Source: Mayamaea pseudoterrestris
Taxonomy: Eukaryota
DNA: 64,000 bases
Reading direction: 5' to 3'
Assembly (NCBI GenBank): GCA_027923505.1
Contig: BROI01000023.1
Span: forward strand, 62,001-126,000
The notes under the pieces were generated by a model. The model ran no database searches, was not told the origin of the DNA, and was given only the letters and a program-made list of their open reading frames with translations. The position numbers were made by a program, and so were the translations under genes. Numbering within the stretch: position 1 is the first letter of the stretch; every line of letters starts with the position of its first letter. Shown in pieces: positions 23,559 to 58,349 of this stretch.

Positions 23559-23697
23559 AAAGTGTACTGCCAAAAACTTTGATTTTTATCAAAGTTATTG
23601 GCACTGTAGAGTAAAGTGTAGTGCCAAAAACTTTCATTTTCAAAGTTATCGGCACTATCAGACAAAGTGTACTTCCAAAAACTTTGATTTTCAAAAA
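23559..23697. repeat. ~52-bp tandem repeat (about 2.7 copies); each full unit is an imperfect inverted repeat
   Basis: Units begin aaagtgta at 23559, 23613 and 23664; within a unit a(c/g)tgccaaaaacttt pairs with aaagttat(t/c)ggcact. Confidence 0.85.
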
Positions 23698-24556: not shown

Positions 24557-25624
24557 TTAGGGAAGGCTGCTCAGGACATCATCCACTCCCTTCTTACGTC
24601 GCTTCGGATCAGCGCTAATCAAACCGCCCGTCGGAAAGCCATACCAAATGCATCCGGCGACTCGCTCCTTGGATGTATCGACGCCACAAATGTCAGCGAA
24701 TTCGCTCGTCTTTTGCACCGGGCCACTGGTCCATTTCGTGCCTATGCCTTCACTCCACATGCTCAGCATAAAGTTTTGAACGGCGCAGCTGGTCGATTTA
24801 AAATCTTCAAGCTCTCGTTCCGGATCATGCGGCGACAGTTTGGTTGTCACGACACACCATCCGGGAATCTTGGTCCAATCGACGCTCGATGATAAGCCAT
24901 CGGCAGTTTCCATAGTTTGCATTGACTTTTGTTTCAGCTGCACAAACTTTTGCACCGTCTCTGGTCCAACTTGAATGAATCTCCAAGGTTCCGACTGACT
25001 ACGGTTCGGCGCAGCAATCGCGCAAGTGACAGCCCGACGCAAGACGGCGCGATCCACTGGCGTTTGGTCAAACTGGTCAACCGTCCGTCGGCCGACAATG
25101 AGTGACTGAAACTCCATGGCAACTTGCTTGGCTGCTTCCGATGTCTTTAAATACCACGGCAAAAAGTCATCGACTGACACTTCACCAGTTTCGTCAACGT
25201 CAAAGTATTTGAACAAGGCTTGCACGTCTTGAGGACTAGCGTCAATGTCAAGCATGCGGAGCATTTCGTCAAGCTCAACGGCATCCAATGTACCGGAATT
25301 GTCGGTATCGACGCGCGAAAAGACTTCGAGGGCGTGCTCCAGTTCGGCTGTTGAAGAGGTCCAAAAGTTGGAATTCTCAATAGCACTGCTGTCAGCGGCA
25401 TCGGCGGTATCGTCTCGGCTGAATGATGCCAATGAAGTTATCACCGCAGCTGCTCGCGATGGCGTAGTGATGGCATTGAGTTTTCTGCTCGTCAGATGCA
25501 CAGGAGCTAAAAACGCATTGTGAAAAGGAATTAGCGCCAGCAGAAATAAAAGACTCTTAGGACGAAGAAACGCATTGGCTAAAGGCAGGCAAGCCGCTTG
25601 AAGCAAGCCTTGGCGCATCTTCAT
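24557..25624 (-). CDS. EF-hand pair fused to a nitroreductase-family (FMN) domain, probably plastid-targeted
   Basis: EF loops DTDNSGTLDAVE and DVDETGEVSVDD; nitroreductase motifs GRRTVDQF, AIAAPNRSQSEPWRF, CAVQNFMLSMWSEGIGTKW and IWYGFP; leader ...LLALIPFHNA-FLAP. Confidence 0.85.
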   Translation of the reverse strand: MKMRQGLLQAACLPLANAFLRPKSLLFLLALIPFHNAFLAPVHLTSRKLNAITTPSRAAAVITSLASFSRDDTADAADSSAIENSNFWTSSTAELEHALEVFSRVDTDNSGTLDAVELDEMLRMLDIDASPQDVQALFKYFDVDETGEVSVDDFLPWYLKTSEAAKQVAMEFQSLIVGRRTVDQFDQTPVDRAVLRRAVTCAIAAPNRSQSEPWRFIQVGPETVQKFVQLKQKSMQTMETADGLSSSVDWTKIPGWCVVTTKLSPHDPERELEDFKSTSCAVQNFMLSMWSEGIGTKWTSGPVQKTSEFADICGVDTSKERVAGCIWYGFPTGGLISADPKRRKKGVDDVLSSLP

Positions 25625-25841
25625 GGTTGATGTGTGAAGATGGCATGGAAGAAGAAAGATCGCAGTTCAAACTTATGTCGCTACGGTACTGATCGAGAAC
25701 CTTTACTCGCTGCGCGCGGAACGAGACGTTGCTTCGGTTCCTTTCCCGCCAATGCACAATGCGGAAAATGGTCATATCAATAAATTACTTACTCCGCACG
25801 AGCACACTTTTGATTCAGAAAGCTGATACTGCGATATCATC

Positions 25842-26399
25842 ATGGACCATCGTGGGCAACAAGAGTTTGGCATCCACCCGCCAGCCGCTGCTCCTGGCGG
25901 CCAGGGCCACGGGAGGATTCGCGTCATGATTCAGCAGCAGCAGCTGGAGGAGGAGCCTATCGGTGGCGTACCTATCATTGTGAGACTCGGTGGCTCGCCC
26001 CCACGCCTGCATGATGACGGTTTTGCGCCTTTTGCGCGCGCACGAGTTGCACTTCCGTTCCCTGCCGAGGTCCCTCATGATCTCGACGATGACGACTTTA
26101 ACGACGACGACAATCCAGTATTGGCTAATCTGAATGAAGCGGTCAACCCATTTAACGCAGGCCATGCTCGCGCTCGCTCCCATCACTTGTTCATGCTTCA
26201 TCCTGCGCCGCCGGAGGACGACTTGGAACTTTTTCGTGGCCTCATTCCTTTACACCTTGGCGAAAATCTTGTAACTGACCATGAAGACTCATGGAGCAGT
26301 TCCAGTCTCAATACAATGCATAGCAACAACGCTTTGAGTGAAACCAGTGGTTTGCAAAGAAACGGTCATGGCGATGAATCGATGGAATTTAACTATTAA
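25842..26399 (+). CDS. Short hypothetical low-complexity protein
   Basis: 185-aa ORF, divergent from the nitroreductase gene; no homology recognised. Confidence 0.4.
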   Translation: MDHRGQQEFGIHPPAAAPGGQGHGRIRVMIQQQQLEEEPIGGVPIIVRLGGSPPRLHDDGFAPFARARVALPFPAEVPHDLDDDDFNDDDNPVLANLNEAVNPFNAGHARARSHHLFMLHPAPPEDDLELFRGLIPLHLGENLVTDHEDSWSSSSLNTMHSNNALSETSGLQRNGHGDESMEFNY

Positions 26400-26725
26400 A
26401 AACAAGACGCAGTCTGAAGGATGCATGTGAATGCATGGGAGTTTTGAAAGTCATCAAAAATGAAACGTGGAAGTAGGAACCTTCAGACATAGATAGTTTT
26501 CGAATATGTGGTAATCTAATTAGTCGATAAAATGCAAGCGTTTAAAGTAACATATTTAAATCATAAGGAACGAAAAAGCTGTTGCTAGCAAAGAATCCAT
26601 CCGGCACTGAAAAGACCGTTTCATTCATGCGTGACGCTTGAACGACCAATCTCGCATTCGCCCAAGCTTGCGATGCGGATGTGACACTTTCATTGGATTT
26701 GTGGCTGCTTAAAAAACTTATTTCA

Positions 26726-27700
26726 GGAATCATCATTGTTGCCTGTTGAGGCCTCCAATCCATTCAATTCATGTTTGGTTTCATGATGGGCCAATGGTTG
26801 GGTCAAATGCACATATTGTAGTCTCCACAAAGATGTTCGCCATGGTGAGACTCATCAGATCCAACAACTTGTTGGATCTGGTAGCAGTGCACCTCCAGTG
26901 GCACTGTAGGCTGGCAGAATGGCCCACCACGCCTGGAATACAAACACCATTCCGTTTCTAATTGATTAGAATACAAAGGCTTGTCAGCTTGGGTGTGAAT
27001 CCATCCCCTTGCCATGAGACTCCACACATTCAACAAGTGGTTGAATGTGCCAGCGGTGCAAATCTTTTTGGCTACAGGAATCATCAGTGTTGCCTGTTGA
27101 GCCCTCCAATCCATTCAATTCATGATTGGTGTCATGATGGGCCAATGTTTGGGTCAATTGCACCCATTGCAGTCTCCACAAAGATGTTCACCATGGTGAG
27201 ACTCAGCAGATCCAACAATTTGTTGGATCTGGTAGCGGTGCACCTCCAGTGGCACTGCAGGCTGCCAGAGTGGCCTGCCACTCCTGTTATACAACAAAGA
27301 TTCCGTTTAAAGTGGAATACAACAAACATTCCATTTAAAATAGAATGGGACTGATAGTCTCGTCATTTTGGGTGTGGAACCCATCACCATGCTAGGAGAT
27401 TCCGCACATTCAACAAATGGTTGAATGTGCCAGCAGGGCCCCCTTTTTGGCTGCAAAGATCATCAGCATTGCGTGCTGAGCCCTCCAATACCTATCAATT
27501 CATGTTTGTTGACATGATGGGCTAGGAAGTTGGTCACATGCACCTCATTATCCATCACCATGGATGCTATTGGTGATACTTGGCAGATCCAACAACTTGT
27601 TGGATCTGCGAGCCCTGCACCTCAAGTGGCAAGTCCAACTGCCTGAATGGCCAACAGACCCTGGAATACAACAAACATGGACATTGCATTCCATGGAGAC
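26726..27700. repeat. Diverged ~350-380-bp tandem repeat (about 2.7 copies), each a dimer of ~170-180-bp palindrome-bearing subunits; left flank of the satellite
   Basis: Units begin near 26726, 27076 and 27456 (aggaatcatca../aagatcatca..); shared blocks cctccaat...tcaattcatg, cagatccaacaaNttgttggatctg, gcacctcNagtggca and cacattcaacaaNtggttgaatgtg. Confidence 0.85.
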
Positions 27701-27778
27701 ATTAGCCTGTCAACTTGTCTTGTAGTGCATCTGAAATAAGGTTGTGAGTTGGATACAAAAAAACATGGGCAGTTCAGA

Positions 27779-28040
27779 CATCCACACAGGAACCAGCTCC
27801 ATGGTGCTACAGTGCATGGCCTACAAAATCTACTCCCAATTGTAGTCTTGATCCATCAATCTTGTTTAGCTATGCTTGAAGACATGCTTGCGGTGAGATT
27901 GCTGCCCAAAAATCATCCATAGCTGATTCGTAGCAGCTACAGTATGGAAGGGCAACACAGCCATCCACACAGGAACCAGCACCATGGTGCTACAGTGCGT
28001 GCCCTTCCATACCTACCCCCAAATGTAGTCATTGTCCAGT
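27779..28040. repeat. Two diverged copies of a ~183-bp unit bridging the left-flank repeat and the satellite
   Basis: catccacacaggaaccagc(t/a)ccatggtgctacagtgc at 27779 and 27962. Confidence 0.75.
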
Positions 28041-31000
28041 CTGTGCAACAAGATGGTATGCTTGGACTGGCAGGTGTCTGAGGGGATGGCAATGTATTTG
28101 GTGACAACTTGTCACCAGTCTCAGCCCGCAGATGCCATGACATTCAAACGCCCCTACAGCAAACCCTGTAGGTGCCCAAATTACACCAGAATGGTGCCAA
28201 CATCATTATTCAGGCTGCGCTACAAGATGGTAGGCTTGGCTGGTGTCTCAGGGGATGGCAATGTATTTGGTGACAACTTGTCACCAGTCTCAGCCCGCAG
28301 ATGCCATGACATTCAAATGCCCCTACAGCAAGCCCTGTAGGTGCCCAAATGACACCAGAATGGTGCCAACATCATTATTCAGGCTGCGCTACAAGATGGT
28401 AGGCTTGGCTGGTGTCTCAGGGGATGGCAATGTATTTGGTGACAACTTGTCACCAGTCTCAGCCCGCAGATGCCATGACATTCAAATGCCCCTACAGCAA
28501 GCCCTGTAGGTGCCCAAATGACACCAGAATGGTGCCAACATCATTATTCAGGCTGCGCTACAAGATGGTAGGCTTGCCTGGTGTCTCAGGGGATGGCAAT
28601 GTATTTGGTGACAACTTGTCACCAGTCTCAGCCCGCAGATGCCACAACATTCAAATGCCCCTACAGCAAGCCCTGTAGGTGCCCAAATTACACCAGAATG
28701 GTGCCAACATCATTATTCAGGCTGCGCTACAAGATGGTAGGCTTGGCTGGTGTCTCAGGGGATGGCAATGTATTTGGTGACAACTTGTCACCAGTCTCAG
28801 CCCGCAGATGCCATGACATTCAAACGCCCCTACAGCAAGCCCTGTAGGTGCCCAAATGACACCAGAATGGTGCCAACATCATTATTCAGGCTGCGCTACA
28901 AGATGGTAGGCTTGGCTGGTGTCTCAGGGGATAGCAATGTATTTGGTGACAACTTGTCACCAGTCTCAGCCCGCAGATGCCATGACATTCAAACGCCCCT
29001 ACAGCAAGCCCTGTAGGTGCCCAAATGACACCAGAATGGTGCCAACATCGTTATTCAGGCTGCGCTACAAGATGGTAGGCTTGCCTGGTGTCTCAGGGGA
29101 TGGCAACGTATTTGGTGACAACTTGTCACCAGTCTCAGCCCGCAGATGCCATGACATTCAAACGCCCCTACAGCAAGCCCTGTAGGTGCCCAAATGACAC
29201 CAGAATGGTGCCAACATTGTTATTCAGGCTGCGCTACAAGATGGTAGGCTTGGCTGGTGTCTCAGGGGATGGCAATGTATTTGGTGACAACTTGTCACCA
29301 GTCTCAGCCCGCAGATGCCACGACATTCAAACGCCCCTACAGCAAGCCCTGTAGGTGCCCAAATGACACCAGAATGGTGCCAACATCAATATTCAGGTTG
29401 CGCTACAAGATAGGAGACTTGGCTGGTGTCTGAGGGGATGGCAATGTATTTGGTGACAACTTGTCACCATTTTCAGCCCGCAGATGCCATGACATTCAAA
29501 CGCCCCTACAGCAAGCCCTGTTGGTGCCCAAATGACACCAGAATGGTGCCAACATCATTACTTCGGCTGCGCTACATGATGGTAGGCTTGGCTGGTGTCT
29601 CAGGGGATGGCAATGTATTTGGTGTCAACTTGTCACCAGTCTCAGCCTGCAGATGCCATGACATTCAAACGCCCCTACAGCAAGCCCTGTTGGTGCCCAA
29701 ATGACACCAGAATGGTGCCAACATCATTATTTCGGCTGCGCTACAAGATGGTAGGCTTGGCTGGTGTCTCAGGGGATGGCAATGTATTTGGTGACAACTT
29801 GTCACCAGTCTCAGCCCGCAGATGCCATGACATTCAAACGCCCCTACAGCAAGCCCTGTAGGTGCCCAAATTACACCAGAATGGTGCCAACATCATTATT
29901 CAGGCTGCGCTACAAGATGGTAGGCTTGGCTGGTGTCTCAGGGGATGGCAATGTATTTGGTGACAACTTGTCACCAGTCTCAGCCCGCAGATGCCATGAC
30001 ATTCATATACCCCTACAGCAAGCCCTGTTGGTGCCCAAATGACACCAGAATGGTGCCAACATCATTATTTCGGCTGCGCTACAAGATGGTAGGCTTGGCT
30101 GGTGTCTCAGGGGATGGCAATGTATTTGGTGACAACTTGTCACCAGTCTCAGCCCGCAGATGCCATGACATTCAAACGCCCCTACAGCAAGCCCTGTAGG
30201 TGCCCAAATGACACCAGAATGGTGCCAACATCATTATTTTAACTGCGCTACAAGATGGTAGGCTTGGCTGGTGTCTCAGGGGATGGCAATGTATTTGGTG
30301 ACAACTTGTCACCAGTCTCAGCCTGCAGATGCCATGACATTCAAACGCCCCTACAGCAAGCCCTGTAGGTGCGCAAATGACACCAGAATGGTGCCAACAT
30401 CATTATTCAGGCTGCGCTACAAGATGGTAGGCTTGCCTGGTGTCTCAGGGGATGGCAATGTATTTGGTGACAACTTGTCACCAGTCTCAGCCCGCAGATG
30501 CCATGACATTCAAACGCCCCTACAGCAAGCCCTGTAGGTGCGCAAATGACACCAGAATGGTGCCAACACCATTATTCAGGCTGCGCTACAAGATGGTAGG
30601 CTTGCCTGGTGTCTCAGGGGATGGCAATGTATTTGGTGACAACTTGTCACCAGTCTCAGCCTGCAGATGCCATGACATTCAAACGCCCCTACAGCAAGCC
30701 CTGTAGGTGCCCAAATGACACCAGAATGGTGCCAACATCATTATTCAGGCTGCGCTACAAGATGGTAGGCTTGGCTGGGGTCTCAGGGGATGGCAATGTA
30801 TTTGGTGACAACTTGTCATCAGTCTCAGCCCGCAGATGCCATGACATTCAAACGCCCCTACAGCAAGCCCTGTAGGTGCCCAAATGACACCAGAATGGTG
30901 CCAACATCGTTACTTCGGCTGCGCTACAAGATGGTAGGCTTGGCTGGTGTCTCAGGGGATGGCAACGTATTTGGTGACAACTTGTCACCAGTCTCAGCCC

Positions 31001-34000
31001 GCAGATGCCATGACATTCAAACGCCCCTACAGCAAGCCCTGTAGGTGCCCAAATAACACCAGAATGGTGCCAACATCGTTATTTCGGCTGCGCTACAAGA
31101 TGGTAGGCTTGGCTGGTGTCTCAGGGGATGGCAATGTATTTGGTGACAACTTGTCACCAGTCTCAGCCCGCAGATGCCATGACATTCAAACGCCCCTACA
31201 GCAAGCCCTGTAGGTGCCCAAATGACACCAGAATGGTGCCAACATCATTATTCAGGCTGCGCTACAAGATGGTAGGCTTGGCTGGTGTCTCAGGGGATGG
31301 CAATGTATTTGGTGACAACTTGTCACTAGTCTCAGCCCGCAGATGCCGTGACATTCAAACAACCCTACAGCAAGCCCTGTAGGTGCCCAAATTACACCAG
31401 AATGGTGCCAACACCATTATTCAGGCTGCGCTACAAGATGGTAGGCTTGCCTGGTGTCTCAGGGGATGGCAATGTATTTGGTGACAACTCGTCACCAGTC
31501 TCAGCCCGCAGATGCCATGACATTCAAACGCCCCTACAGCAAGCCCTGTTGGTGCCCAAATTACACCAGAATGGTGCCAACATCATTATTCAGGCTGCGC
31601 TACAAGATGGTAGGCTTGGCTGGTGTCTCAGGGGATGGCAATGTATTTGGTGACAACTTGTCACCAGTCTCAGCCCGCAGATGCCATGACATTCAAATTC
31701 CCTACAGCAAGCCCTGTTGGTGCCCAAATGACACCAGAATGGTGCCAACATCATTATTTCGGCTGCGCTACAAGATGGTAGGCTTGGCTGGTGTCTCAGG
31801 GGATGGCAATGTATTTGGTGACAACTTGTCACCAGTCTCAGCCCGCAGATGCCATGACATTCATACACCCCTACAGCAAGCCCTGTAGGTGCCCAAATGA
31901 CACCAGAATGGTGCCAACATCATTATTCAGGCTGCGCTACAAGATGGTAGGCTTGGCTGGTGTCTCAGGGGATGGCAATGTATTTGGTGACAACTTGTCA
32001 CCAGTCTCAGCCCGCAGATGCCATGACATTCAAACGCCCCTACAGCAAGCCCTGTAGGTGCCCAAATGACACCAGAATGGTGCCAACATCATTATTCAGG
32101 CTGCGCTACAAGATGGTAGGCTTGGCTGGTGTCTCAGGGGATGGCAATGTATTTGGTGACAACTTGTCACCAGTCTCAGCCTGCAGATGCCATGACATTC
32201 AAACGCCCCTACAGCAAGCCCTGTAGGTGCCCAAATGACACCAGAATGGTGCCAACATCATTATTCAGGCTGCGCTACAAGATGGTAGGCTTGGCTGGTG
32301 TCTCAGGGGATGGCAATGTATTTGGTGACAACTTGTCACCAGTCTCAGCCCGCAGATGCCATGACATTCAAACGCCCCTACAGCAAGCCCTGTAGGTGCG
32401 CAAATGACACCAGAATGGTGCCAACATCATTATTCAGGCTGCGCTACAAGATGGTAGGCTTGCCTGGTGTCTCAGGGGATGGCAATGTATTTGGTGACAA
32501 CTTGTCACCAGTCTCAGCCCGCAGATGCCATGACATTCAAACGCCCCTACAGCAAGCCCTGTAGGTGCGCAAATGACACCAGAATGGTGCCAACACCATT
32601 ATTCAGGCTGCGCTACAAGATGGTAGGCTTGGCTGGTGTCTCAGGGGATGGCAATGTATTTGGTGACAACTTGTCACCAGTCTCAGCCTGCAGATGCCAT
32701 GACATTCAAACGCCCCTACAGCAAGCCCTGTAGGTGCCCAAATGACACCAGAATGGTGCCAACATCATTATTCAGGCTGCGCTACAAGATGGTAGGCTTG
32801 GCTGGGGTCTCAGGGGATGGCAACGTATTTGGTGACAACTTGTCATCAGTCTCAGCCCGCAGATGCCATGACATTCAAACGCCCCTACAGCAAGCCCTGT
32901 AGGTGCCCAAATGACACCAGAATTGTGCCAACATCGTTACTTCGGCTGCGCTACAAGATGGTAGGCTTGGCTGGTGTCTCAGGGGATGGCAACGTATTTG
33001 GTGACAACTTGTCACCAGTCTCAGCCCGCAGATGCCATGACATTCAAACGCCCCTACAGCAAGCCCTGTAGGTGCCCAAATGACACCAGAATGGTGCCAA
33101 CATCATTATTCAGGCTGCGCTACAAGATGGTAGGCTTGGCTGGTGTCTCAGGGGATGGCAATGTATTTGGTGACAACTTGTCACCAGTCTCAGCCCGCAG
33201 ATGCCGTGACATTCAAACAACCCTACAGCAAGCCCTGTAGGTGCCCAAATGACACCAGAATGGTGCCAACACCATTATTCAGGCTGCGCTACAAGATGGT
33301 AGGCTTGGCTGGTGTCTCAGGGGATGGCAATGTATTTGGTGACAACTTGTCACCAGTCTCAGCCCGCAGATGCCGTGACATTCAAACGCCCCTACAGCAA
33401 GCCCTGTAGGTGCCCAAATTACACCAGAATGGTGCCAACACCATTATTCAGGCTGCGCTACAAGATGGTAGGCTTGCCTGGTGTCTCAGGGGATGGCAAT
33501 GTATTTGGTGACAACTTGTCACCAGTCTCAGCCCGCAGATGCCATGACATTCAAATGCCCCTACAGCAAGCCCTGTTGGTGCCCAAATGACACCAGAACA
33601 GTGCCAACAGCATTACTTCGGCTGCGCTACAAGATGGTAGGCTTGGCTGGTGTCTCAGGGGATGGCAATGTATTTGGTGACAACTTGTCACCAGTCTCAG
33701 CCCGCAGATGCCACGACATTCAAACAACCCTACAGCAAGCCCTGTAGGTGCCCAAATGACACCAGAATGGTGCCAACATCATTATTCAGGCTGCGCTACA
33801 AGATGGTAGGCTTGGCTGGTGTCTCAGGGGATGGCAATGTATTTGGTGACAACTTGTCACCAGTCTCAGCCCGCAGATGCCATGACATTCAAATGCCCCT
33901 ACAGCAAGCCCTGTTGGTGCCCAAATGACACCAGAACAGTGCCAACAGCATTACTTCGGCTGCGCTACAAGATGGTAGGCTTGGCTGGTGTCTCAGGGGA

Positions 34001-37000
34001 TGGCAATGTATTTGGTGACAACTTGTCACCAGTCTCAGCCCGCAGATGCCATGACATTCAAACGCCCCTACAGCAAGCCCTGTAGGTGCCCAAATGACAC
34101 CAGAATGGTGCCAACATCATTATTCAGGCTGCGCTACAAGATGGTAGGCTTGGCTGGTGTCTCAGGGGATGGCAATGTATTTGGTGACAACTTGTCACCA
34201 GTCTCAGCCCGCAGATGCCATGACATTCAAACGCCCCTACAGCAAGCCCTGTAGGTGCCCAAATGACACCAGAATGGTGCCAACATTATTATTCAGGCTG
34301 CGCTACAAGATGGTAGGCTTGGCTGGTGTCTCAGGGGATGGCAATGTATTTGGTGACAACTTGTCACCAGTCTCAGCCCGCAGATGCCACGACATTCAAA
34401 TGCCCCTACAGCAAGCCCTGTAGGTGCCCAAATGACACCAGAATGGTGCCAACATCATTATTCAGGCTGCGCTACAAGATGGTAGGCTTGGCTGGTGTCT
34501 CAGGGGATGGCAATGTATTTGGTGACAACTTGTCACCAGTCTCAGCCCGCAGATGCCACGACATTCAAATGCCCATACAGCAAGCCCTGTAGGTGCCCAA
34601 ATGACACCAGAATGGTGCCAACATCATTATTCAGGCTGCGCTACAAGATGGTAGGCTTGGCTGGTGTCTCAGGGGATGGCAATGTATTTGGTGACAACTT
34701 GTCACCAGTCTCAGCCCGCAGATGCCATGACATTCAAACGCCCCTACAGCAAGCCCTGTAGGTGCCCAAATGACACCAGAATGGTGCCAACACATCTTCC
34801 GATCCTCAAATCTTCCTGGTGTCTCAGGGGATGGCAAGTATTTCCTGCGCTACAAGATGGTAGGCCCATGTGGGCCTCTCGGTGCGCTCATAGCTCTGCA
34901 GGGGATGGCAATGTATTTGGTGACAACTTGTCACCAGTCTCAGCCCGCAGATGCCACAACATTCAAACGCCCCTACAGCAAGCCCTGTAGGTGCCGAAAT
35001 TACACCAGAATGGTGCCAACATCATTATTCAGGCTGCGCTACAAGATGGTAGGCTTGGATGGTGCCTCAGGGGATGGCAATGTATTTGGTGACAACTCGT
35101 CACCAGTCTCAGCCCGCAGATGCCATGACATTCAAACGCCCCTACAGCAAGCCCTGTAGGTGCCCAAATTACACCAGAATGGTGCCAACATCATTATTTC
35201 GGCTGCGCTACAAGATGGTAGGCTTGGATGGTGCCTCAGGGGATGGCAATGTATTTGGTGACAATTTGTCACCAGTCTCAGCCCGCAGATGCCACAACAT
35301 TCAAATGCCCCTACAGCAAGCCCTGTAGGTGCCGAAATTACACCAGAATGGTGCCAACATCATTATTCAGGCTGCGCTACAAGATGGTAGGCTTGGATGG
35401 TGCCTCAGGGGATGGCAATGTATTTGGTGACAACTCGTCACCAGTCTCAGCCCGCAGATGCCATGACATTCAAACGCCCCTACAGCAAGCCCTGTAGGTG
35501 CCCAAATTACACCAGAATGGTGCCAACATCATTATTTTGGCTGCGCTACAAGATGGTAGGCTTGGATGGTGCCTCAGGGGATGGCAATGTATTTGGTGAC
35601 AACTCATCACCAGTCTCAGCCCGCAGATGCCATGACATTCAAACGCCCCTACAGCAAGCCCTGTAGGTGCCCAAATGACACCAGAATGGTGCCAACATCA
35701 TTATTCAGGCTGCGCTACAAGATGGTAGGCTTGGCTGGTGTCTCAGGGGATGGCAATGTATTTGGTGACAACTTGTCACCAGTCTCAGCCCGCAGATGCC
35801 ATGACATTCAAACGCCCCTACAGCAAGCCCTGTTGGTGCCCAAATGACACCAGAATGGTGCCAACACCATTATTCAAGCTGCGCTACAAGATGGTAGGCT
35901 TGGCTGGTGTCTCAGGGGATGGCAATGTATTTGGTGACAACTTGTCACCAGTCTCAGCCCGCAGATGCCACGACATTCAAACGCCCCTACAGCAAGCCCT
36001 GTAGGTGCCCAAATGACACCAGAATGGTGCCAACATCGTTACTTCGGCTGCGCTACAAGATGGTAGGCTTGGCTGGTGTCTCAGGGGATGGCAATGTATT
36101 TGGTGACAACTTGTCACCAGTCTCAGCCCGCAGATGCCATGACATTCAAACGCCCCTACAGCAAGCCCTGTAGGTGCCCAAATGACACCAGAATGGTGCC
36201 ATTATCATTAATTCGGCTGCGCTACATGATGGTAGGCTTGGCTGGTGTCTCAGGGGATGGCAATGTATTTGGTGGCAACTTGTCACCAGTCTCAGCCCGC
36301 AGATGCCATGACATTCAAACGCCCCTACAGCAAGCCCTGTAGGTGCCCAAATGACACCAGAATGGTGCCAACATCATTACTTCGGCTGCGCTACATGATG
36401 GTAGGCTTGCCTGGTGTCTCAGGGGATGGCAATGTATTTGGTGACAACTTGTCACCAGTCTCAGCCTGCAGATGCCACGACATTCAAATGCCCCTACAGC
36501 AAGCCCTGTAGGTGCCCAAATGACACCAGAATGGTGCCAACATCATTATTCAGGCTGCGCTACAAGATGGTAGGCTTGGCTGGGGTCTCAGGGGATGGCA
36601 ATGTATTTGGTGACAACTTGTCACCAGTCTCAGCCCGCAGATGCCATGACATTTAAACGCCCCTACAGCAAGCCCTGTTGGTGCCCAAATGACACCAGAA
36701 TGGTGCCAACATCATTACTTCGGCTGCGCTACATGATGGTAGGCTTGGCTGGTGTCTCAGGGGATGGCAATGTATTTGGTGACAACTTGTCACCAGTCTC
36801 AGCCCGCAGATGCCATGACATTCAAACGCCCCTACAGCAAGCCCTGTAGGTGCCCAAATGACACCAGAATGGTGCCAACATCATTATTCAGGCTGCGCTA
36901 CAAGATGGTAGGCTTGGCTGGTGTCTCAGGGGATGGCAATGTATTTGGTGACAACTTGTCACCAGTCACAGCCCGCAGATGCCACGACATTCAAATGCCC

Positions 37001-38456
37001 CTACAGCAAGCCCTGTAGGTGCCCAAATTACACCAGAATGGTGCCAACATCATTATTTTAACTGCGCTACAAGATGGTAGGCTTGGCTGGTGTCTCAGGG
37101 GATGGCAATGTATTTGGTGACAACTTGTCACCAGTCTCAGCCCGCAGATGCCATGACATTTAAACGCCCCTACAGCAAGCCCTGTTGGTGCCCAAATTAC
37201 ACCAGAATGGTGCCAACATTATTACTTCGGCTGCGCTACAAGATGGTAGGCTTGGCTGGTGTCTCAGGGGATGGCAATGTATTTGGTGACAACTTGTCAC
37301 CAGTCTCAGCCCGCAGATGCCATGACATTCAAATGCCCCTACAGCAAGCCCTGTAGGTGCCCAAATTACACCAGAATGGTGCCAACATCATTATTTTAAC
37401 TGCGCTACAAGATGGTAGGCTTGGCTGGTGTCTCAGGGGATGGCAATGTATTTGGTGACAACTTGTCACCAGTCTCAGCCCGCAGATGCCATGACATTCA
37501 AACGCCCCTACAGCAAGCCCTGTAGGTGCCCAAATGACACCAGAATGGTGCCAACATCATTATTCAGGCTGCGCTACAAGATGGTAGGCTTGGCTGGTGT
37601 CTCAGGGGATGGCAATGTATTTGGTGACAACTTGTCACCAGTCTCAGCCCGCAGATGCCATGACATTCAAACGCCCCTACAGCAAGCCCTGTAGGTGCCC
37701 AAATGACACCAGAATGGTGCCAACATCGTTATTCAGGCTGCGCTACAAGATGGTAGGCTTGGCTGGTGTCTCAGGGGATGGCAATGTATTTGGTGACAAC
37801 TTGTCACCAGTCACAGCCCGCAGATGCCACGACATTCAAATGCCCCTACAGCAAGCCCTGTAGGTGCCCAAATTACACCAGAATGGTGCCAACATCATTA
37901 TTTTAACTGCGCTACAAGATGGTAGGCTTGGCTGGTGTCTCAGGGGATGGCAATGTATTTGGTGACAACTTGTCACCAGTCTCAGCCCGCAGATGCCATG
38001 ACATTAAAACGCCCCTACAGCAAGCCCTGTTGGTGCCCAAATTACACCAGAATGGTGCCAACATCATTATTCAGGCTGCGCTACAAGATGGTAGGCTTGG
38101 CTGGTGTCTCAGGGGATGGCAATGTATTTGGTGACAACTTGTCACCAGTCTCAGCCCGCAGATGCCATGACATTCAAACGCCCCTACAGCAAGCCCTGTT
38201 GGTGCCCAAATGACACCAGAATGGTGCCAACATCATTATTCAGGCTGCGCTACAAGATGGTAGGCTTGGCTGGTGTCTCAGGGGATGGCAATGTATTTGG
38301 TGACAACTTGTCACCGGTCTCAGCCCGCAGATGCCATGACATTCAAACGCCCCTACAGCAAGCCCTGTAGGTGCCCAAATGACACCAGAATGGTGCCAAC
38401 ATCATTATTCAGGCTGCGCTACAAGATGGTAGGCTTGGCTGGTGTCTCAGGGGATG
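28040..38456. repeat. 169-bp tandem satellite, ~62 copies, ~10.4 kb, highly homogeneous
   Basis: Consensus ggtgcccaaatgacaccagaatggtgccaacatcattattcaggctgcgctacaagatggtaggcttggctggtgtctcaggggatggcaatgtatttggtgacaacttgtcaccagtctcagcccgcagatgccatgacattcaaacgcccctacagcaagccctgta. The ORF track steps by 169; there is one 1-bp deletion near 31700 and one +60-bp disruption near 34791-34900. Confidence 0.98.
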
Positions 38457-38945
38457 CGATACAATATGGAAGGCTTGGCTGGTGTCTCAGGGGATGGCAA
38501 TGTGACTGGTGAGAACTTCGCACCAGTCTCTGCCCGCAGATGCCTTGACCTTCCAATGCTCATATATCAAGCCATGTGCACCCAAAACATACAAGAATGG
38601 CGCCAGCATTATTTTCAGGCTGCGTTACAAGATGGAATGCTTGGCTTGTCCCTTTGGATGCTGCAATGCCATTGTTGAGAACTTCTCACCTGTCCCAGTG
38701 TCCCAGCCAGCAGCAGCCATGACTTCAACAGCCCATTTTCTCAGAGCCATGTCCATGGACAATACACACCAGAATGGTGGAATTGTATATCTTTTAGGCT
38801 GGTCTACAAAGATGGAATACCTGCTCATTGGTGAGAACTCCCAGCTAGCAGCAGCCTTTGACTTTCAGCAGGCCATTCTCCGAGCCATGTCATTTGCTCC
38901 TTATCGCAGCGGTTCTTGCACCAGAATGCGTGATAATAATATTAT
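38457..38945. repeat. About 3 progressively degenerate satellite monomers (right flank)
   Basis: Recognisable caccagaatg, caggctgcg-tacaagatgg and ggtgagaact blocks with increasing divergence out to ~38940. Confidence 0.85.
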
Positions 38946-49992: not shown

Positions 49993-51876
49993 AGTATTAT
50001 CTACTTTGTTTTTCGTCGCAAAGCTGGCTGGCTGTCGATCAGGAATGGCAACAACGAGACCAACAAATTAGTCTCCTACTCGTACAAAACAATCAAACCA
50101 ATTTCACTATCGGCACTGGACGACATTTAACATAATCGCATCGTAAGATGGTTAAGTAGCTTTTGGTAGATAGATTGTTTCTAGACGAGCACCCAAATAT
50201 CCGCCAAGGGCTGCATCTGCGTAGCTGGCTATGCTGCAACTGTAAAGTTTTCGTTGGTGATAGACTGCTGTCGTCATAGTCGGCCTGGCTTGGGCTTCTT
50301 GTTTCCTTCCCGTCGCTTGAACCCGTCACTGATGAAGTGCGTGCCGCCATTGGATGCATTCACCGTTTGAGCAGTAGACTCAGATTTCATCATTCCGTTA
50401 AAAGACAAAGCTCCAGCGCTCGCAACATAATCGTTGTAACCTCACCTTAGCAAAGTACGAAGTTTGGAGTGTCATTTATTTGCGCCCAAGCCATTTAATT
50501 ATATCGCTTGCATTCGCCTCGAACTCAAACCACTCCATCTTCTTTCATGTACAGTTTTTCGCCAAGTTTAACATTGACATTGTTCCATGCGACAGTTTGC
50601 TCGCCGGACGAGTCTTGGCCGTCTTTCCCGAGTTTTTGCTTGAGCAATCTCTAACAACACAAAAGCCAGGCCAATATGATTGGATGCCAACTTGCTTCGC
50701 ATGGTCTGGAGCTCCCATGCCATACAAACACGCGTTTTAACAACTCTTGCGTGCTTGCGAAGACGCGGTGAATTGTTGTTTGCTCCAATACTTGAATGTT
50801 GTCACTCCCATTGTTTGTACGAAACCTCGTACGCTGCTTTGGCCATTCCGGCGTCCGACTCCCATTCGCGCCGATCAAGCTCCTTGTCTCTCTCATTTGC
50901 AGCGTCAAATTCGTAGCAAGGAGGCACGTCCTCACAAACCTATGTCCATTTCAATCCCAGTAAATGCCTGAGCCTTCGTATTACTCATGAAAAGCTCCGT
51001 GGTGGCAGCAGTTGACTAGACATTGCATGTAGCAGTTGCAGCCATATCCGTTACTATAGCTTGCGGCCACTTGTCGTTCTCCTCTTGCCAAAGTGTCTCA
51101 TGTTGTATTGAATTGAAAAGAAAACAAGATATATGACGCCATTGCACAAGATAGACATGCGTGCATGCACTCATTCATTCCAGCACTCTGGATGCTGTTT
51201 CGTTTCGCTGTTTTAATGCAATCAGCAAGTACTCCTCCATCGAAGTAAGGACAAGGGATAGGCGTTCGTTATCCAATGAATTCGCGCTGCCGATGATTGG
51301 TGGAACGATATCGTTCAAATGATTGACGCTAGTGAAGCCTTTGATATCGCAGTTTTGATTAGAAATTGCTTGCCGCAATTTTTAAACGAAAATCGCACAA
51401 CTGACTTGTGGCGACTGAGAGTGAAGTTGATGCTGCTGCTATTGCTGCTGCCGAAATGATTTCCATCGTCCAGAAAGTCATGAAATCAACCAATTGATCG
51501 AGTATGTAGAGTATGATATGCGTTAACCTCAATACCTTCCCTTGACTTCGACCCTCATGGGAGCATGATGATGGGGTCAATGGCCGATGGCGCGGCGAAT
51601 CGTTCCGAGGTGCATTGCTGTCGCACCGGTTTTGACAAATCGCTGATTGGATGGTAAGACTTAAATAATTTAACGCCTTTTTACCGCGTGACGTTTCACA
51701 CAAAGAGCGAATCACCATGCGCGCTGCGCCCCTCCAACGCCGAGGATACATCCATCACATTCCCTTGCTTGCTGCTCCTTGCTCGCTAATCAGTCTGAGG
51801 TTCCATTCTTATTGCTGCTGCATAACAAAGCGCCTACCAAAGGAGATATTGCTCCGATTGCGTAGTCTTGGTTGCC

Positions 51877-54800
51877 ATGAAACGAGACCATAATGCTGGC
51901 ACCAAGCAGCAGCAGCAACCCTCATCTCCTCGCACCTTGTCCTCGGATGCAACGGCAATCATTCGATGCATGGGCTATGGCATGGCTTTACTCTTTGCCT
52001 TATGCAGTTTTCATGTTTCGAGACAGATGCTGATCGTTTTGGGCGATCGAGATGAAGGTGGGAGCATGGCAATGAGTCTGACTGCATCGGCAGCAGCATC
52101 TGCAAGTAGCTACAAATATCTACCCGACTATGGATTGCGCCTTCGACGAACAACCACTACAAGTGAAGCATCAGTCTACCAACGACAAAATAACAACAAA
52201 AAGCGAATAGTCAAAAAGACTTTTTCAGTTACTTGGCTCATGTCGTATCCTCATTCAGGAGCGACCTATACGCTCCAAAACATTCAGCACTTGACGCAGC
52301 AATCCACGGCAACCATTTACGAAACGGAAGTTGACGACGAGCATGTCAGCTACGTGGAAGCAAGTCACTTGGTTCAAATGAGTGCTACAGCAAGGAACGC
52401 TCCGCAGCAGGAGCGGCAATCGCTCTCCGACGACTATGCTTCGGACGTTTCGTCGCGCCTGCTCCCCCATGAAAATGATGCTGCAACAGATGCTCCGCGT
52501 TTTTACCTCTACAACTCATCACTGCCAATTCCCGATAACTTACTAGTCAAGACACATTGCACAAACTTTTGCGAAAATTGCGTCCATGTACATGAAGAGG
52601 AAGCAGATTTTGACGAGTTTGAACGATTGTGTAGAACGGAGCAACGCAAGCAACCACAAAGGGGGCAGACGCCAGTCACTCCGCCCCAGTATACTGTGAG
52701 CAGTGTTATACATCTTTGGCGAAATCCGCTCGATAATATACTATCGCGCATGCACAGCCACGGGTCAGAAGGCTCGTTCAAGAAAGCAACGCGAAGCAAA
52801 GTCTTGGCCTGGTGCAGCTACTCGAAGAGTCATGCGATTGGCGGGACAAGTAGCAGCAATGCCTCGACTGCAATCAACACTAAAATGATACAAAAGGCAC
52901 TCTCATGGCTCGACGACGACGATGAAACAAGTTGGAGCGCACTCGCGGCAAACGTTCCTTGCGTCTTTGACTTGATTCGTCTCGTGCAGTGGCACAATCA
53001 TGCGCTACAAGTTGCCACTCGCGCCAATGTGCCAGTCATGCACCTTTACTACGAGGACTATGCCACCAATGACGAATCGCTGCGGGATACTAATCGCGAC
53101 TTACTATCGTTTTTGAATTTGAAAGGTGTTGCCTCGTCGTCGCCACTGCCATTCGACGCTTCCAGTGAAAGATACGCGCGCTTCTTTACGCAGATGGAGC
53201 TATCAAGCATGGCCAAACTCATCAAGCGACTAGCGAGTCGAGACACTTGGCCATTTATTAGAAACTATGTGCATGAGCTGCGGCTGACTGAGACTTTTGA
53301 GATGAAGGATCGAGGGATTGATAAAGCAAACGAAGCAAAGGCGTTGACGCAACTCGGGCCGCACCAACCCGAATTTACATCGGACATTGTGTGGCTAGTA
53401 TCTTTTCCAAATAGCGGTACAAGCTACACGATGAACAATGTCCGCCGGACAAGTAACATGACGACTGCCACCAACTACGCCGCCGAAGCCATTCAAACAG
53501 CGGGTCGCTTGGTGCCAGTGAAGCCCAATCTGCCGGATGGTCCGTATTTGCTCTTACCAAACTTGCAAGTTCCAAAGTACAGTTTAACCAAGACGCACTG
53601 CACAGCGTACTGCGACGCTTGTCAAACCATGGATACTGTCCGAGCGTTGGATCAGTTCGAGGAAGGCTGTCGAATTGTTACAAAGGGAGTCTGGCCGAAT
53701 TTAACAAAGATATCGCAGCGATATGAACCGGTCAAGGGTGAGTGAGAATTCAAAGCGATGTGCATGGCACTTTGCTGAGAAATACCAGTGTTGGCCACCA
53801 AAATATCTGACACTTTACACCTTTACGAACAGCGGTTCACATTTTTCGCTCGCCCTTTGACAATCTCGTGGCGCGAAAGCACTTGGGATCAAAACGCCGG
53901 TTAACATTGGGCATTTTCAAGCCCGACGACCTAGCCTTTCAAGACAGTCGGGAGGGCATGGTGGCTTGGTGCAACTTCATCGACAAAGGATTTATAACGA
54001 GCGCACACAACAAGGGCATCCAGCCATTTACACCGGAACTGGAAGCACTGTTTCGCAAGGTGCCATGCTACTCGGACTGGTTTCGCTACATCCAATGGCA
54101 CGACCTGGCCATGGCGGCGGTAGGACGAATGGAGATTCCGGTGCATGACATTTACTACGAAAGCTACTCTGACAATTACGACCACACGGTGCGAAAATTG
54201 AACCAGTTTTTGGAGCTCCCAAGCGTGGTCGAACCGGAACCATTTATCACTGGCAAGCAGTACCGCCATTTCTTCAACCGAGACGACGTTGCGCATGCGC
54301 GCGAGCTAGTCAAGTACTTGTCGACGATGCAGTTGTGGAAAAAGCTGCGGCACTACTTCGACGATGATCAGTTTGGATTCAAGGAGAATTTGAGTAGTGG
54401 TGCAGTAGGTATCCAGCAATCCGCGAACGACCACGTTGCTAGCGAAGAGGACAATATTGCGGTTGGGATCATTGATGAAGAGCAGAAGGAAGCAACAATC
54501 AACGATGCAGGCGACGACGATGACGGGGAGGAGTTGGAAGGAGAAGACGATGATGATGTTGATGATGGTACGGACGATGATGCATCTGCAAGTGGAGAAG
54601 GCTTATTAATGCCATCAACATCGCCACGAACGAAAATTGCCTGGTTGATGAGCTTTCCTAATAGTGGTACATCGTATACAATAACAAACATTCAACACAT
54701 GTCAAACATGACGCAGGCTACAAACCATGGTATGGAAGCGAACCAGTCGCTACCTCTGTTGCCCGATCTGCCGAATGGCCCATTTATCCTTGATCCGCAA

Positions 54801-57969: not shown

Positions 57970-58349
57970 TGACGTAGTTTTCACTGGCACTCGTTTCATA
58001 CTATAGCCTTGTGACGCAGTTTTCACTGGCACTCGTTTCATACTTAAGCCTTGTGTCGCGGTTTTCACTGGCACCCGTTTCGTATTATTGCCGTATGACG
58101 TAATTGACACTGGCACTTGTTTCACACTATTGCCTTATGACGTTTCACTGGCACTCGTTTCAAATTGTTTCCTCATGACGCAGTTTTCACTGGCACTCGT
58201 TTCACACTATTGCCTAATGACGTAATTGACACTGGCACTCGTTTCGTATTATTGCCTTATGACGCAATTGACACTGGCACTTGTTTCGCACTATTGCCTT
58301 ATGGCGTGATTGACACTGGCACTCGTTTTACACTATTGCCTTATGACGC
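57970..58349. repeat. 42-bp minisatellite, ~9 copies (one 38-bp unit)
   Basis: Consensus tgacgYa(gtttt/attga)cactggcactcgtttcacactattgcctta; units at 57970, 58012, 58054, 58096, 58138, 58176, 58218, 58260 and 58302. Confidence 0.95.

What the first reader, a model, noticed from the sequence alone, without database searches (positions are those of the whole stretch)
26856..38690. A dyad kept palindromic by compensatory changes and phased about every 170 bp across the array and both diverged flanks
Seen: every 169-mer carries TGGTGACAA-C-TTGTCACCA or a close variant (first centre 28108). Right-flank monomers change both arms together: TGGTGAGAA-C-TTCGCACCA (38516) and TGAGAA-C-TTCTCA (38682). 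Left-flank units have different arms around the same core: CAGATCCAACAA-C/T-TTGTTGGATCTG (centres 26868, 27219, 27596) and CACATTCAACAA-N-TGGTTGAATGTG (27037, 27417). Spacings are 169, 182, 198 (170 after removing an internal duplication), 179, then 512 (3 x ~171) to the first satellite dyad. The monomer has two more inverted repeats (CACCA-gaa-TGGTG; CCTACAG-caagcc-CTGTAGG). Inference: symmetry rather than sequence is conserved, suggesting one cruciform or dimeric-protein site per nucleosome, possibly a structure-based centromere or chromatin signal. Arm-to-arm conversion is a neutral alternative.
Basis: partly seen in the sequence, partly recalled or inferred. Interest (0 to 1): 0.85.

Follow-up and report, generated by a model that had tools for sequence, protein, structure and literature searches.

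The report
Palindrome-bearing satellite DNA in a diatom
This is a block of ordinary but very abundant tandem-repeat (satellite) DNA in a soil/freshwater diatom: the evenly spaced palindrome comes from copying one 169-base unit 61 times, and only a neighbouring repeat family shows signs that its palindrome is actively preserved.

Summary
The sequences and coordinates are real. 50 of 61 in-array units carry the perfect 9-1-9 palindrome. The reading is only partly right.

- **Inside the array:** the dyad mutates like the rest of the monomer, at 8 variant types on 19 sites against 50 on 150. All 10 arm variants break a pair and none is compensated.
- **Right flank:** it holds 2-3 decayed monomers. 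Their arms are as diverged as the rest, and they share one compensated pair (P about 0.06-0.12).
- **Left flank:** it is not diverged monomers. It holds two other repeat families (AB and X) plus an inverted monomer fragment. Homology to the monomer is not detectable.
- **The 512 = 3 x 171 phasing:** numerology.
- **AB family:** the arms are invariant between copies that are 62-80% identical elsewhere. The loop base varies, and the A and B types differ by two compensated pairs (P = 0.0035).
- **Host:** a Mayamaea-like diatom. All three families have summed contig depths far above single copy.
- **Known diatom centromere features:** low GC is not met.

Verdict: a new satellite family of a known kind. 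Function is untested.

The parts
28068..38456 (.). Array of the 169-bp satellite monomer (S): 61 dyad-bearing units, about 2% mean divergence from consensus
   Evidence: TRF rows 28068-34792 and 34899-38456, period 169, 96% matches. 61 dyad hits. Per-monomer differences of 0-10.
28099..28117 (.). First copy of the 9-1-9 palindrome TGGTGACAA-C-TTGTCACCA. It recurs every 169 bp up to 38298-38316.
   Evidence: The hairpin of a copy folds at -7.0 kcal/mol as single-stranded DNA.
34793..34898 (.). Interruption of the array: a scrambled unit with partial monomer pieces and two short foreign stretches. The unit here lacks the dyad.
   Evidence: Dyad spacing of 229. Sequence read.
38455..38598 (+). 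Decayed monomer R1 (81% identical outside the dyad). Dyad TGGTGAGAA-C-TTCGCACCA has 8 of 9 pairs.
   Evidence: nhmmer E = 4e-32. Identity, dyad, hairpin -4.2 kcal/mol.
38600..38775 (+). Decayed monomer R2 (72% identical outside the dyad). Dyad TGTTGAGAA-C-TTCTCACCT has 7 of 9 pairs.
   Evidence: nhmmer E = 7.5e-20.. Hairpin -2.3 kcal/mol, which 27 of 200 shuffles match.
38797..38890 (+). Weak third decayed monomer R3. It keeps arm 1 (TGGTGAGAA), but the second arm is lost.
   Evidence: nhmmer E = 0.58. Alignment z = 6.3 against shuffles. Sequence read.
26713..27700 (+). About 2.7 copies of a 351-380-bp repeat made of homologous A and B halves. It belongs to a separate abundant family and is not detectably related to S.
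   Evidence: Direct-repeat families D1-D5 and D8. TRF period 380. A against B alignment score 167, right flank alone z = 3.9. Summed contig depth of 1e4-5e5 against 105 single copy.
26856..26880 (.). A1 dyad CAGATCCAACAA-C-TTGTTGGATCTG (12-1-12)
27025..27049 (.). B1 dyad CACATTCAACAA-G-TGGTTGAATGTG (10-bp stem with 5-nt loop, or 11 of 12 pairs)
27207..27231 (.). A2 dyad (12-1-12, loop T)
27404..27430 (.). B2 dyad (11-bp stem, 5-nt loop)
   Evidence: Hairpin -11.1 kcal/mol.
27583..27609 (.). A3 dyad (13-1-13)
   Evidence: Hairpin -12.3 kcal/mol.
27680..27745 (-). Inverted partial S monomer lying between the AB repeat and the X units
   Evidence: nhmmer minus-strand hit, E = 0.0085. Alignment z = 9.1, 0 of 200 shuffles.
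27767..28038 (+). Two 183-bp X units, 82% alike, each with the palindrome AGC(A/T)CCATGGTGCT. Only the last roughly 35 nt grades into S.
   Evidence: D6, D9 and I14. X against S z = 0.4-1.0. Summed depth 4e3-4e4.
27942..28012 (.). In X2 only: a perfect 13-bp inverted repeat (27942-27954 and 28000-28012) around 45 nt. It is absent from X1.
   Evidence: Fold -19 kcal/mol, z = -5.0. X1/X2 alignment.

Best explanation
Shown:
- The region is a block of satellite DNA in a Mayamaea-like pennate diatom.
- Its core is a young, homogenised 61-unit array of a non-coding 169-bp monomer (S). S belongs to a family whose summed contig depth is four to five orders of magnitude above the single-copy flank.
- On the right the array ends in two to three decayed monomers.
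- On the left it abuts two other abundant tandem families (AB and X) and an inverted S fragment.
- The even spacing of the dyad in the array is the trivial result of amplifying a monomer that happens to contain a 9-1-9 palindrome. Inside the array the palindrome decays at the same rate as the rest of the unit, without compensation.

Inferred:
- Over longer times, palindromes in this block are created and re-symmetrised by replication template switching or hairpin-templated repair. This mutational process yields 'compensatory' pairs without selection.
- In the AB family something more acts. The arms are held constant while the loop and flanks vary. The most likely cause is that the dyad is read by a dimeric protein. 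Alternatively it forms a hairpin or cruciform that attracts breakage and gene conversion, and so favours the repeat's own homogenisation and spread.
For: - Tandem structure and dyad counts.
- Non-coding: 5 (+) and 9 (-) stops per 507 nt in every frame. No Rfam family or tRNA.
- Abundance: in run X1 the unique flank 26400-26885 is one 5525-nt contig at depth 105 with 0 differences. S bins sum to 1.1e6-1.2e7, AB bins to 2e3-5e5 and X bins to 4e3-4e4. Run X2 shows the same pattern against a flank depth of 30.5. 73,172 contigs were laid in X1.
- No constraint in the array, over 59 regular monomers: 8 variant types on 19 dyad sites against 50 on 150 other sites. Variable sites are 7/19 against 42/150 (Fisher p = 0.43). 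Of 11 variant dyads, 10 break one or two pairs, 1 is loop-only and 0 are compensated.
- Right-flank arms are no better kept than the rest.
- The left flank is unrelated to S by nhmmer and by shuffle-calibrated alignment.
- Template-switch-like event in situ: X2 carries a perfect 13-bp inverted repeat. Its sister copy X1 has only 5 of 13 complementary positions there, by my reading. The changes are clustered on both sides.
- Template switching as a source of hairpins and compensatory changes is published (PMC8794818 and PMC5453318; titles and abstract starts seen in the listing).
- AB constraint: arms are identical at 48/48, 24/24 and 24/24 positions, against 80%, 68% and 62% elsewhere (Fisher 7e-5, 2e-4, 2e-5).
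- The loop base varies in both A and B.
- Summed depth peaks in bins that hold AB dyads, for example 231,536 against 16,058 and 10,086 beside A1.
Against: - Three compensated pairs are more than random placement predicts (A/B P = 0.0035). This is what selection for symmetry would also give.
- Unbiased arm-to-arm conversion does not lower the substitution rate, so it cannot by itself explain invariant AB arms.
- The array is young (about 2% divergence), so the test for constraint on the S dyad has little power.
- S has more long (>=7 bp) dyads than shuffles (1 of 300 reach it). Its K&H dyad density (0.308) is above every background window of this locus (maximum 0.254).
- A and S dyads share the central ACAA-C-TTGT, which I cannot explain.
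- The X2 event has no outgroup, so its direction is inferred.
- One search shows only the 40 best-supported of 265 letter differences, so genome-wide dyad variants were not seen.
Confidence: 0.55

Rival explanations
1. Each dyad is a functional site, one per nucleosome-sized unit, read as a cruciform or by a homodimeric protein. It organises satellite chromatin, and selection keeps the symmetry.
For: - AB arms are invariant while the loop varies and the flanks are 62-80% identical.
- Two compensated pairs separate A from B (P = 0.0035) and one separates S from R.
- Hairpins are stable: -12.3, -11.1 and -7.0 kcal/mol.
- AB units fold better than shuffles (z = -2.4 to -3.8 in 4 of 5 units). Their dyad density is 0.48 against 0.21 (0 of 300 shuffles).
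- Unit lengths of 169-190 bp are nucleosome-sized.
Against: - There is no depletion of variants and no compensation in 59 S monomers.
- R1 and R2 arms are as diverged as the rest, and R3 and the unit at 34793-34898 have lost the dyad.
- The best-kept block between S, R1 and R2 is CTACAAGATGG, not the dyad (by my reading of the alignments).
- The S monomer as a whole folds no better than shuffles (59 of 200).
- The 7-6-7 repeat is lost without compensation in R1, R2 and an abundant subfamily.
- No binding protein or structural data exist.
Confidence: 0.25
2. The S array, perhaps collapsed in the assembly, is the centromere or pericentromere of this chromosome. The dyads would be part of a structure-based centromere signal of the kind proposed by Kasinathan and Henikoff.
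For: - S is by far the most abundant tandem repeat seen.
- In many eukaryotes the most abundant tandem repeat is centromeric (recalled: Melters et al. 2013, cited inside PMC5889037).
- The layout of a homogeneous core with older, different repeat layers beside it resembles layered centromeric arrays (recalled).
- The 64-kb window has no low-GC centromere candidate of the P. tricornutum type (at most 2 windows of <=32% GC per 3 kb).
Against: - Experimentally defined diatom centromeres are short, below 33% GC and free of repeats (Diner et al., bioRxiv 10.1101/096016, passages read). Putative ones in the naviculoid Fistulifera are 36-42% GC (10.1101/2021.11.10.468027, passages read).
- The array has 47-56% GC.
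- S does not pass the K&H dyad-density test against permutations.
- Chromosomal position and CenH3 occupancy are unknown.
Confidence: 0.12
3. The units are transposon-derived, as tandemly abutted MITE-like elements or Helitron ends. On this view each dyad is a junction of two terminal inverted repeats or a terminal hairpin.
For: - Conserved termini with divergent interiors are typical of non-autonomous DNA elements.
- Tandem arrays derived from mobile elements are known in animals (recalled).
- AB, X and S pieces are joined in several other arrangements elsewhere in the genome (joints).
Against: - The perfectly complementary arms lie across the unit junction, not at the two ends of one unit. 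By my reading of the dyads, A-right against B-left would give only 10/12, and B-right against A-left only 9/12.
- A single base separates the arms, so there is no target-site duplication.
- No TC...CTRR ends or hairpin-plus-CTAG motif are seen in the sequence (read by eye).
- No transposase ORF adjoins the block (one search scanned 14 of the 33 ORFs of >=150 aa listed, and none was a transposase).
Confidence: 0.05

Closest known systems
Dyad-symmetry-rich centromeric satellites and the non-B-form DNA model (Kasinathan & Henikoff 2018, PMC5889037; abstract and passages read)
   Same: - Nucleosome-sized tandem monomers carrying short dyads predicted to form hairpins or cruciforms.
- The AB units exceed permuted sequence in dyad density and fold energy.
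   Different: - Their dyads are under 10 bp and counted as a density. Here there is one long site per unit: 9-1-9, or 12/13-1-12/13.
- S does not exceed shuffles on their measure.
- Centromere location and CenH3 binding are unknown here.
- Diatoms were not in their survey ('diatom' occurs 0 times).
Satellites with a conserved box: the CENP-B box in alpha and minor satellite, and the 19-bp box shared by divergent CenH3-bound repeats in Meloidogyne (PMC8097292, abstract read)
   Same: In the AB family a short block (the 24 arm bases) is invariant among copies that have diverged 20-38% elsewhere.
   Different: - The box here is a perfect palindrome with a variable centre.
- No binding protein or CenH3 association is known.
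- In the S family the dyad is not the best-kept block.
Template-switch (quasi-palindrome) mutation that creates and maintains hairpins (PMC8794818, PMC5453318; titles and abstract starts only)
   Same: - A perfect 13-bp inverted repeat appears in one of two sister copies through clustered changes.
- Compensated pairs occur in dyads without evidence of selection in the young array.
   Different: - Those studies used reconstructed ancestors. Here no outgroup was available, so direction is inferred.
- This process alone does not explain the invariant AB arms.
Diatom centromeres of Phaeodactylum tricornutum (Diner et al., bioRxiv 10.1101/096016; passages read)
   Same: Same lineage (pennate diatoms) and a non-coding region between genes.
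   Different: Those are short, below 33% GC and non-repetitive. This block is 47-56% GC and purely repetitive.
Oomycete satellites PpSat1 and PpSat2 of Phytophthora parasitica (PMC7290008; one section and passages read)
   Same: Stramenopile satellites in arrays of tens of units, some of them interrupted.
   Different: - Monomers of 337 and 143 bp with other GC contents.
- No palindromes are mentioned ('palindrom', 'dyad', 'hairpin' and 'inverted repeat' each occur 0 times).
- Not related to S by monomer size. The sequences were not compared.

Membership tests
Satellite DNA | Head-to-tail tandem monomers in a long array | tested here: met
   Period 169, 39.8 + 21.1 copies, 96% matches. 61 dyads at 169-bp spacing.
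Satellite DNA | Non-coding, with no structured-RNA gene | tested here: met
   5 or 9 stops per 507 nt in every frame. No Rfam match at gathering score in the window, and only one E = 1.6 hit in 25600-29200. No tRNA.
Satellite DNA | High copy number genome-wide | tested here: met
   Summed contig depth in S bins is 1.1e6-1.2e7 against 105 for the unique flank in X1. In X2 it is 1.4e5-1.3e6 against 30.5. The tool warns that summed depth is not a copy number, so only the order of magnitude is used.
Dyad-enriched (non-B-form) centromeric satellite, Kasinathan-Henikoff sense | Dyad density (palindrome >4 bp, spacer <20) above permuted sequence | tested here: not met
   S: 0.308 against 0.207 +- 0.088, and 40 of 300 shuffles reach it. 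AB does meet it: 0.480 against 0.206, 0 of 300.
Dyad-enriched (non-B-form) centromeric satellite, Kasinathan-Henikoff sense | More stable predicted secondary structure than composition-matched sequence | tested here: inconclusive
   S z = -0.56 (59 of 200 shuffles). A1, A2, B2 and A3 give z = -2.4 to -3.8. B1 gives -0.8, and R1-R3 give -1.0 to +0.2.
Dyad-enriched (non-B-form) centromeric satellite, Kasinathan-Henikoff sense | Lies at the functional centromere (CenH3/CENP-A occupancy) | not testable with these tools
   No ChIP data and no whole genome are held for this window.
Diatom centromere, P. tricornutum type | At least about 500 bp at 32-33% GC or less, with clustered low-GC 100-bp windows | tested here: not met
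   Array 100-bp windows are 47-56% GC. The lowest 500-bp GC in the whole window is 40%. At most 2 low-GC windows fall in any 3 kb. Criterion taken.
Diatom centromere, P. tricornutum type | No repeats | tested here: not met
   The block is purely tandem repeats.
Conserved-box satellite (CENP-B-box or Meloidogyne-box type) | A short block invariant across otherwise diverged monomers | tested here: inconclusive
   Met in AB (arms 48/48, 24/24 and 24/24 against 80, 68 and 62% elsewhere). Not met in S/R (arms 15/18 and 14/18 against 81% and 72%).
Conserved-box satellite (CENP-B-box or Meloidogyne-box type) | A protein that binds the box | not testable with these tools
   None available.
Structure kept by compensatory substitution | Double changes that keep pairing, in excess of chance | tested here: inconclusive
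A/B: 2 compensated pairs among 5 arm changes (P = 0.0035). S/R: 1 shared pair (P = 0.059 for R1, 0.116 for R2). Within 59 array monomers: 0 compensated against 10 monomers with broken pairs.
Template-switch product | Clustered changes that turn a stretch into the exact complement of a nearby stretch, relative to a sister or ancestor | tested here: inconclusive
   The X2 13-bp perfect inverted repeat is absent from X1. No outgroup was available to fix the direction.
MITE- or Helitron-derived tandem array | Terminal inverted repeats within one unit plus a target-site duplication, or TC...hairpin...CTRR ends | tested here: not met
   The complementary arms lie across unit junctions and are separated by one base. 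No such termini were seen by eye. No formal TE library search was possible.

The most novel reading that the evidence does not exclude
This small diatom, unlike Phaeodactylum, has megabase-scale satellite DNA. The palindromes of its S and AB families would be the structure or binding site that recruits centromeric or heterochromatin machinery. That would make it a satellite- and dyad-based centromere type in a lineage thought to have tiny, non-repetitive, low-GC centromeres.
Probability: 0.12. Interest if true: 0.8.

Novelty: new member of a known kind. Interest (0 to 1): 0.38.

Why it matters
Palindromes inside satellite monomers are common, and the dyad-centromere idea is already in print.

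Two things remain useful.

First, the host is a Mayamaea-like diatom. Its published repeat table lists 'Satellites 0' (PMC9724779 Table S3). Yet contig depths suggest that this 169-bp family and two neighbouring families are among the most abundant sequences of the genome. I found no paper describing diatom satellite DNA in three searches.

Second, the AB palindrome is a clean, testable candidate for a protein-binding or hairpin site. It has invariant arms, a variable centre and two compensated pairs between subtypes. If it or S proved to be centromeric, that would change the current picture of diatom centromeres.

Tried and rejected
- **Own genome:** not held, so no genome-wide monomer census was possible.
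- **Metagenome contig scan:** I used an anchor away from the dyad. It gave 7 loci, all single chance matches, with nhmmer hits confined to the anchor.
- **GTDB genome contigs:** 1 chance hit in a bacterial MAG.
- **IMG/VR:** 0 hits.
- **Sequencing runs:** no RNA holder is listed, so nothing can be said on expression.
- **Runs X4 and X6 (other organism labels, same study as X1):**
  - They carry S and AB pieces at low depth but do not cover the unique flank.
  - An adapter-like loose end and the roughly 1000-fold lower depth make carry-over between libraries possible.
  - I therefore do not count them as cross-species conservation.
- **Rfam and tRNA scans:** nothing found.
- **Earlier findings of this scan:** none for this genome or sequence. 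The word search returned only unrelated virus and phage cases.
- **Phytophthora PpSat1/2:** different monomer sizes.
- **Homology of the left flank to S or to R1-R3:** z = 0.1-4.0 over 36 strand-specific tests (14 + 8 + 6 + 8). The inverted fragment (z = 9.1) and an X2 piece that ran into the array start (z = 9.4) are set apart from that count. I treat the homology as not established rather than excluded.
- **Array-wide higher-order repeat:** none (mean differences of 5.7-6.9 at lags 1-24).
- **Script:** it used free end gaps and crashed partway. Its flank identities are unreliable and were replaced.
- **MITE and Helitron readings:** rejected on anatomy, by eye only.


Full report
**What is there**

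The window is gene-dense eukaryotic DNA with long open frames. These carry PH, RanBP zinc finger, arrestin, PDZ and sulfotransferase domains. One frame (2054-3406, minus strand) is 98% identical over 99% of its length to a protein named as from Mayamaea pseudoterrestris, and the next hits are other diatoms. The host is therefore this terrestrial/freshwater pennate diatom or a very close relative. No whole genome is held for the window.

Between two genes lies a 12.4-kb non-coding block. Its core is a tandem array of a 169-bp monomer, here called S, spanning 28068-38456.

**Checking the observation**

A search for the 19-mer with up to 4 substitutions finds 63 sites.
- 61 lie in the array and 50 of those are perfect. 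Spacing is 169 except once 168 and once 229.
- The left-flank dyads and their spacings (169, 182, 198, 179, 512) are also as stated, and the 28-bp internal duplication is real.

Perfect palindromes with stem >=8 and loop <=5 number 57 inside 26700-38900. The other 51.8 kb holds 7, which is what shuffles give (5.4 +- 1.8, 10 shuffles). The dyads are real and well above background. The array copies, however, are one ancestral site copied 61 times, and the five left-flank sites are two site types copied three and two times.

**The array itself**

Monomers differ from their consensus by 0-10 bases. The two irregular units were dropped, namely the first unit and the one after the interruption, leaving 59 regular monomers.
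- The 19 dyad positions carry 8 variant types on 7 variable sites. The other 150 positions carry 50 types on 42 sites (Fisher p = 0.43).
- Among all 169 circular 19-nt windows, 121 have as few or fewer variant types than the dyad window.
- Eleven monomers have a variant dyad. Nine break one pair, one breaks two, one changes only the loop, and none is compensated.
- One unit at 34793-34898 has lost the dyad through rearrangement.
- The monomer has stops in all six frames and matches no RNA family or tRNA.
- As single-stranded DNA the whole monomer folds no better than dinucleotide shuffles (z = -0.56, 59 of 200). The 19-mer alone makes a -7.0 kcal/mol hairpin.
- By the dyad-density measure of Kasinathan and Henikoff, S scores 0.308 against 0.207 +- 0.088 for shuffles, and 40 of 300 shuffles reach it. 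Only for dyads of 7 bp or more does it stand out (1 of 300).

Inside the array the periodicity is trivial, and there is no sign of selection on symmetry. With about 2% divergence the power of this test is low.

**The right flank**

nhmmer with a monomer profile finds two clear decayed monomers and one weak one: R1 at 38455-38598, R2 at 38600-38775 and R3 at 38797-38890.
- Outside the dyad, R1 is 81% and R2 72% identical to S.
- In the arms, 15 of 18 and 14 of 18 bases are unchanged, so the arms are no better kept than the rest.
- R1 and R2 share one compensated pair, C to G with G to C at arm position 7. R1 has one further unilateral change and R2 has two.
- R3 keeps the first arm and has lost the second.
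- Placing the observed number of changes at random gives one compensated pair with P = 0.059 (R1) or 0.116 (R2).
- The 7-6-7 inverted repeat of S is not kept in R1 or R2. It is also missing from an abundant genome-wide subfamily, whose right arm is replaced without a matching change in the left arm (loose ends).
- By my reading, the best-kept block between S, R1 and R2 is CTACAAGATGG, not the dyad.

**The left flank is something else**

The monomer profile finds no plus-strand match left of 28000. It finds only a minus-strand fragment at 27680-27745, which shuffle-calibrated alignment confirms (z = 9.1, 0 of 200). The rest is made of two parts.
- About 2.7 copies of a 351-380-bp repeat (26713-27700). 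Its two halves, A and B, are homologous around their dyads.
- Two 183-bp X units (27767-28038), each with its own 14-nt palindrome.

Alignment of these units to S or to R1-R3, on either strand, gives z = 0.1-4.0. Homology is not established. 'Both diverged flanks' therefore holds only for the right side.

**Abundance**

Contigs of four public runs were laid on 26400-28500.
- Runs X1 and X2 each hold the unique flank 26400-26885 in a 5525-nt contig with no differences, at depth 105 and 30.5. They are the same organism as the window.
- Summed contig depths in X1 are 1.1e6-1.2e7 over S, 2e3-5e5 over AB and 4e3-4e4 over X. X2 shows the same pattern.
- 73,172 contigs were laid in X1: 13,626 at >=99% likeness, 32,591 at 95-99%, 23,464 at 90-95% and 3,491 below 90%.

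The tool warns that summed depth is not a copy number. I use it only to say that all three families are highly repeated genome-wide and that S is probably present at megabase scale (inference). Joints in the same call show S, AB and X pieces abutting in other arrangements elsewhere.

The genome paper of M. pseudoterrestris reports 30.6 Mb and 19% repeats, mostly Copia. It does not use the word satellite in its main text (passages). Its Table S3 lists Satellites 0 and Unclassified 2.26 Mb.

**The AB palindrome looks constrained**

- Between the three AB copies the 24 or 48 arm positions are all identical (48/48, 24/24, 24/24). The remaining aligned positions are 80%, 68% and 62% identical (Fisher 7e-5, 2e-4, 2e-5).
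- The single loop base differs between copies in both A and B. The 12 bases on either side of the dyad are invariant at 8 of 12 positions.
- Summed depth peaks in the bins that contain AB dyads.
- Majority letters at 26855 and 27232 turn the bases next to the A dyads into the G...C seen in A3. The commonest family form is therefore probably 13-1-13.
- A and B arms differ at 5 of 24 sites. Four of these form two compensated pairs (P = 0.0035).
- AB units fold better than shuffles in 4 of 5 cases and have a dyad density of 0.48 against 0.21 (0 of 300).

Unbiased arm-to-arm conversion would not slow arm divergence, by my reasoning. Each mutation is either reverted or fixed on both sides, which leaves the per-site rate unchanged. 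Something more must act here: a protein reading the site, or a hairpin that makes the dyad a hot spot for breakage and gene conversion between copies.

**A mutational source of palindromes in this locus**

X2 has a perfect 13-bp inverted repeat around 45 nt (-19 kcal/mol, z = -5.0). In the sister copy X1 the same columns are complementary at only 5 of 13 positions, by my reading. The differences are clustered on both sides. This is the signature described for replication template switching (PMC8794818 and PMC5453318; listing only). Without an outgroup the direction is inferred.

**Comparison with what is known**

That study did not include diatoms.

The only experimentally defined diatom centromeres are short, non-repetitive and below 33% GC (10.1101/096016). 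Putative ones in Fistulifera are 36-42% GC. The array is 47-56% GC, and the window has no low-GC island.

I found no description of diatom satellite DNA, and the 19-mer does not appear in print. These searches cover only the held library.

**Verdict**

This is a new satellite family of a familiar kind.
- The S dyad is inherited by amplification, and no constraint on it is detectable.
- The compensated pairs are few and equally well explained by template switching.
- The AB palindrome is a plausible functional or self-promoting site.
- A centromeric role is possible but runs against what is known for diatoms.

Noticed in passing
window 28068-38456, with runs X1 and X2: The 169-bp family appears to be a major genome component. 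Summed contig depth is 1e4-1e5 times the single-copy flank. Yet the published repeat table for the matching species lists no satellites and 2.26 Mb of unclassified repeats. The array here may be collapsed in the assembly.
   Followed up: partly
window 27942-27954 and 28000-28012: A perfect 13-bp inverted repeat is present in X2 and absent from the adjacent 82%-identical X1. It looks like a one-step template-switch event.
   Followed up: partly
window 27680-27745 (-): An inverted partial S monomer lies between the AB and X repeats. One search also reports an opposite-strand joint between AB and S elsewhere in the genome.
   Followed up: partly
window 26868, 27219, 27596 and all S dyads: A and S dyads share the central ACAA-C-TTGT although their units show no detectable homology. 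This could be chance, deep common ancestry or a shared binding core.
   Followed up: no
window 30221-30897 and 32248-32924: The same run of monomer variants recurs 12 units apart. This is a local multi-monomer duplication, and there is no array-wide higher-order repeat.
   Followed up: partly
window 57969-58349: About 9 copies of a 42-bp tandem repeat with 79% matches. It overlaps the start of an ORF at 58165-58722.
   Followed up: no
window 23559-23695: A 51-bp repeat in 2.6 copies contains a 9-4-9 palindrome at 23575-23596. It sits in an intergenic spacer.
   Followed up: no
window 51868-53745 and 53868-55556: Two adjacent ORFs both carry a sulfotransferase domain, so they are probably tandem paralogues.
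   Followed up: no
window 24557-25624 (-): An ORF combines an EF-hand pair with a nitroreductase domain.
   Followed up: no
runs X4 and X6: Two runs labelled as other organisms in the same study hold S and AB pieces at about 1000-fold lower depth, without the unique flank. One loose end looks like a sequencing adapter. This may be library carry-over rather than shared satellites.
   Followed up: no
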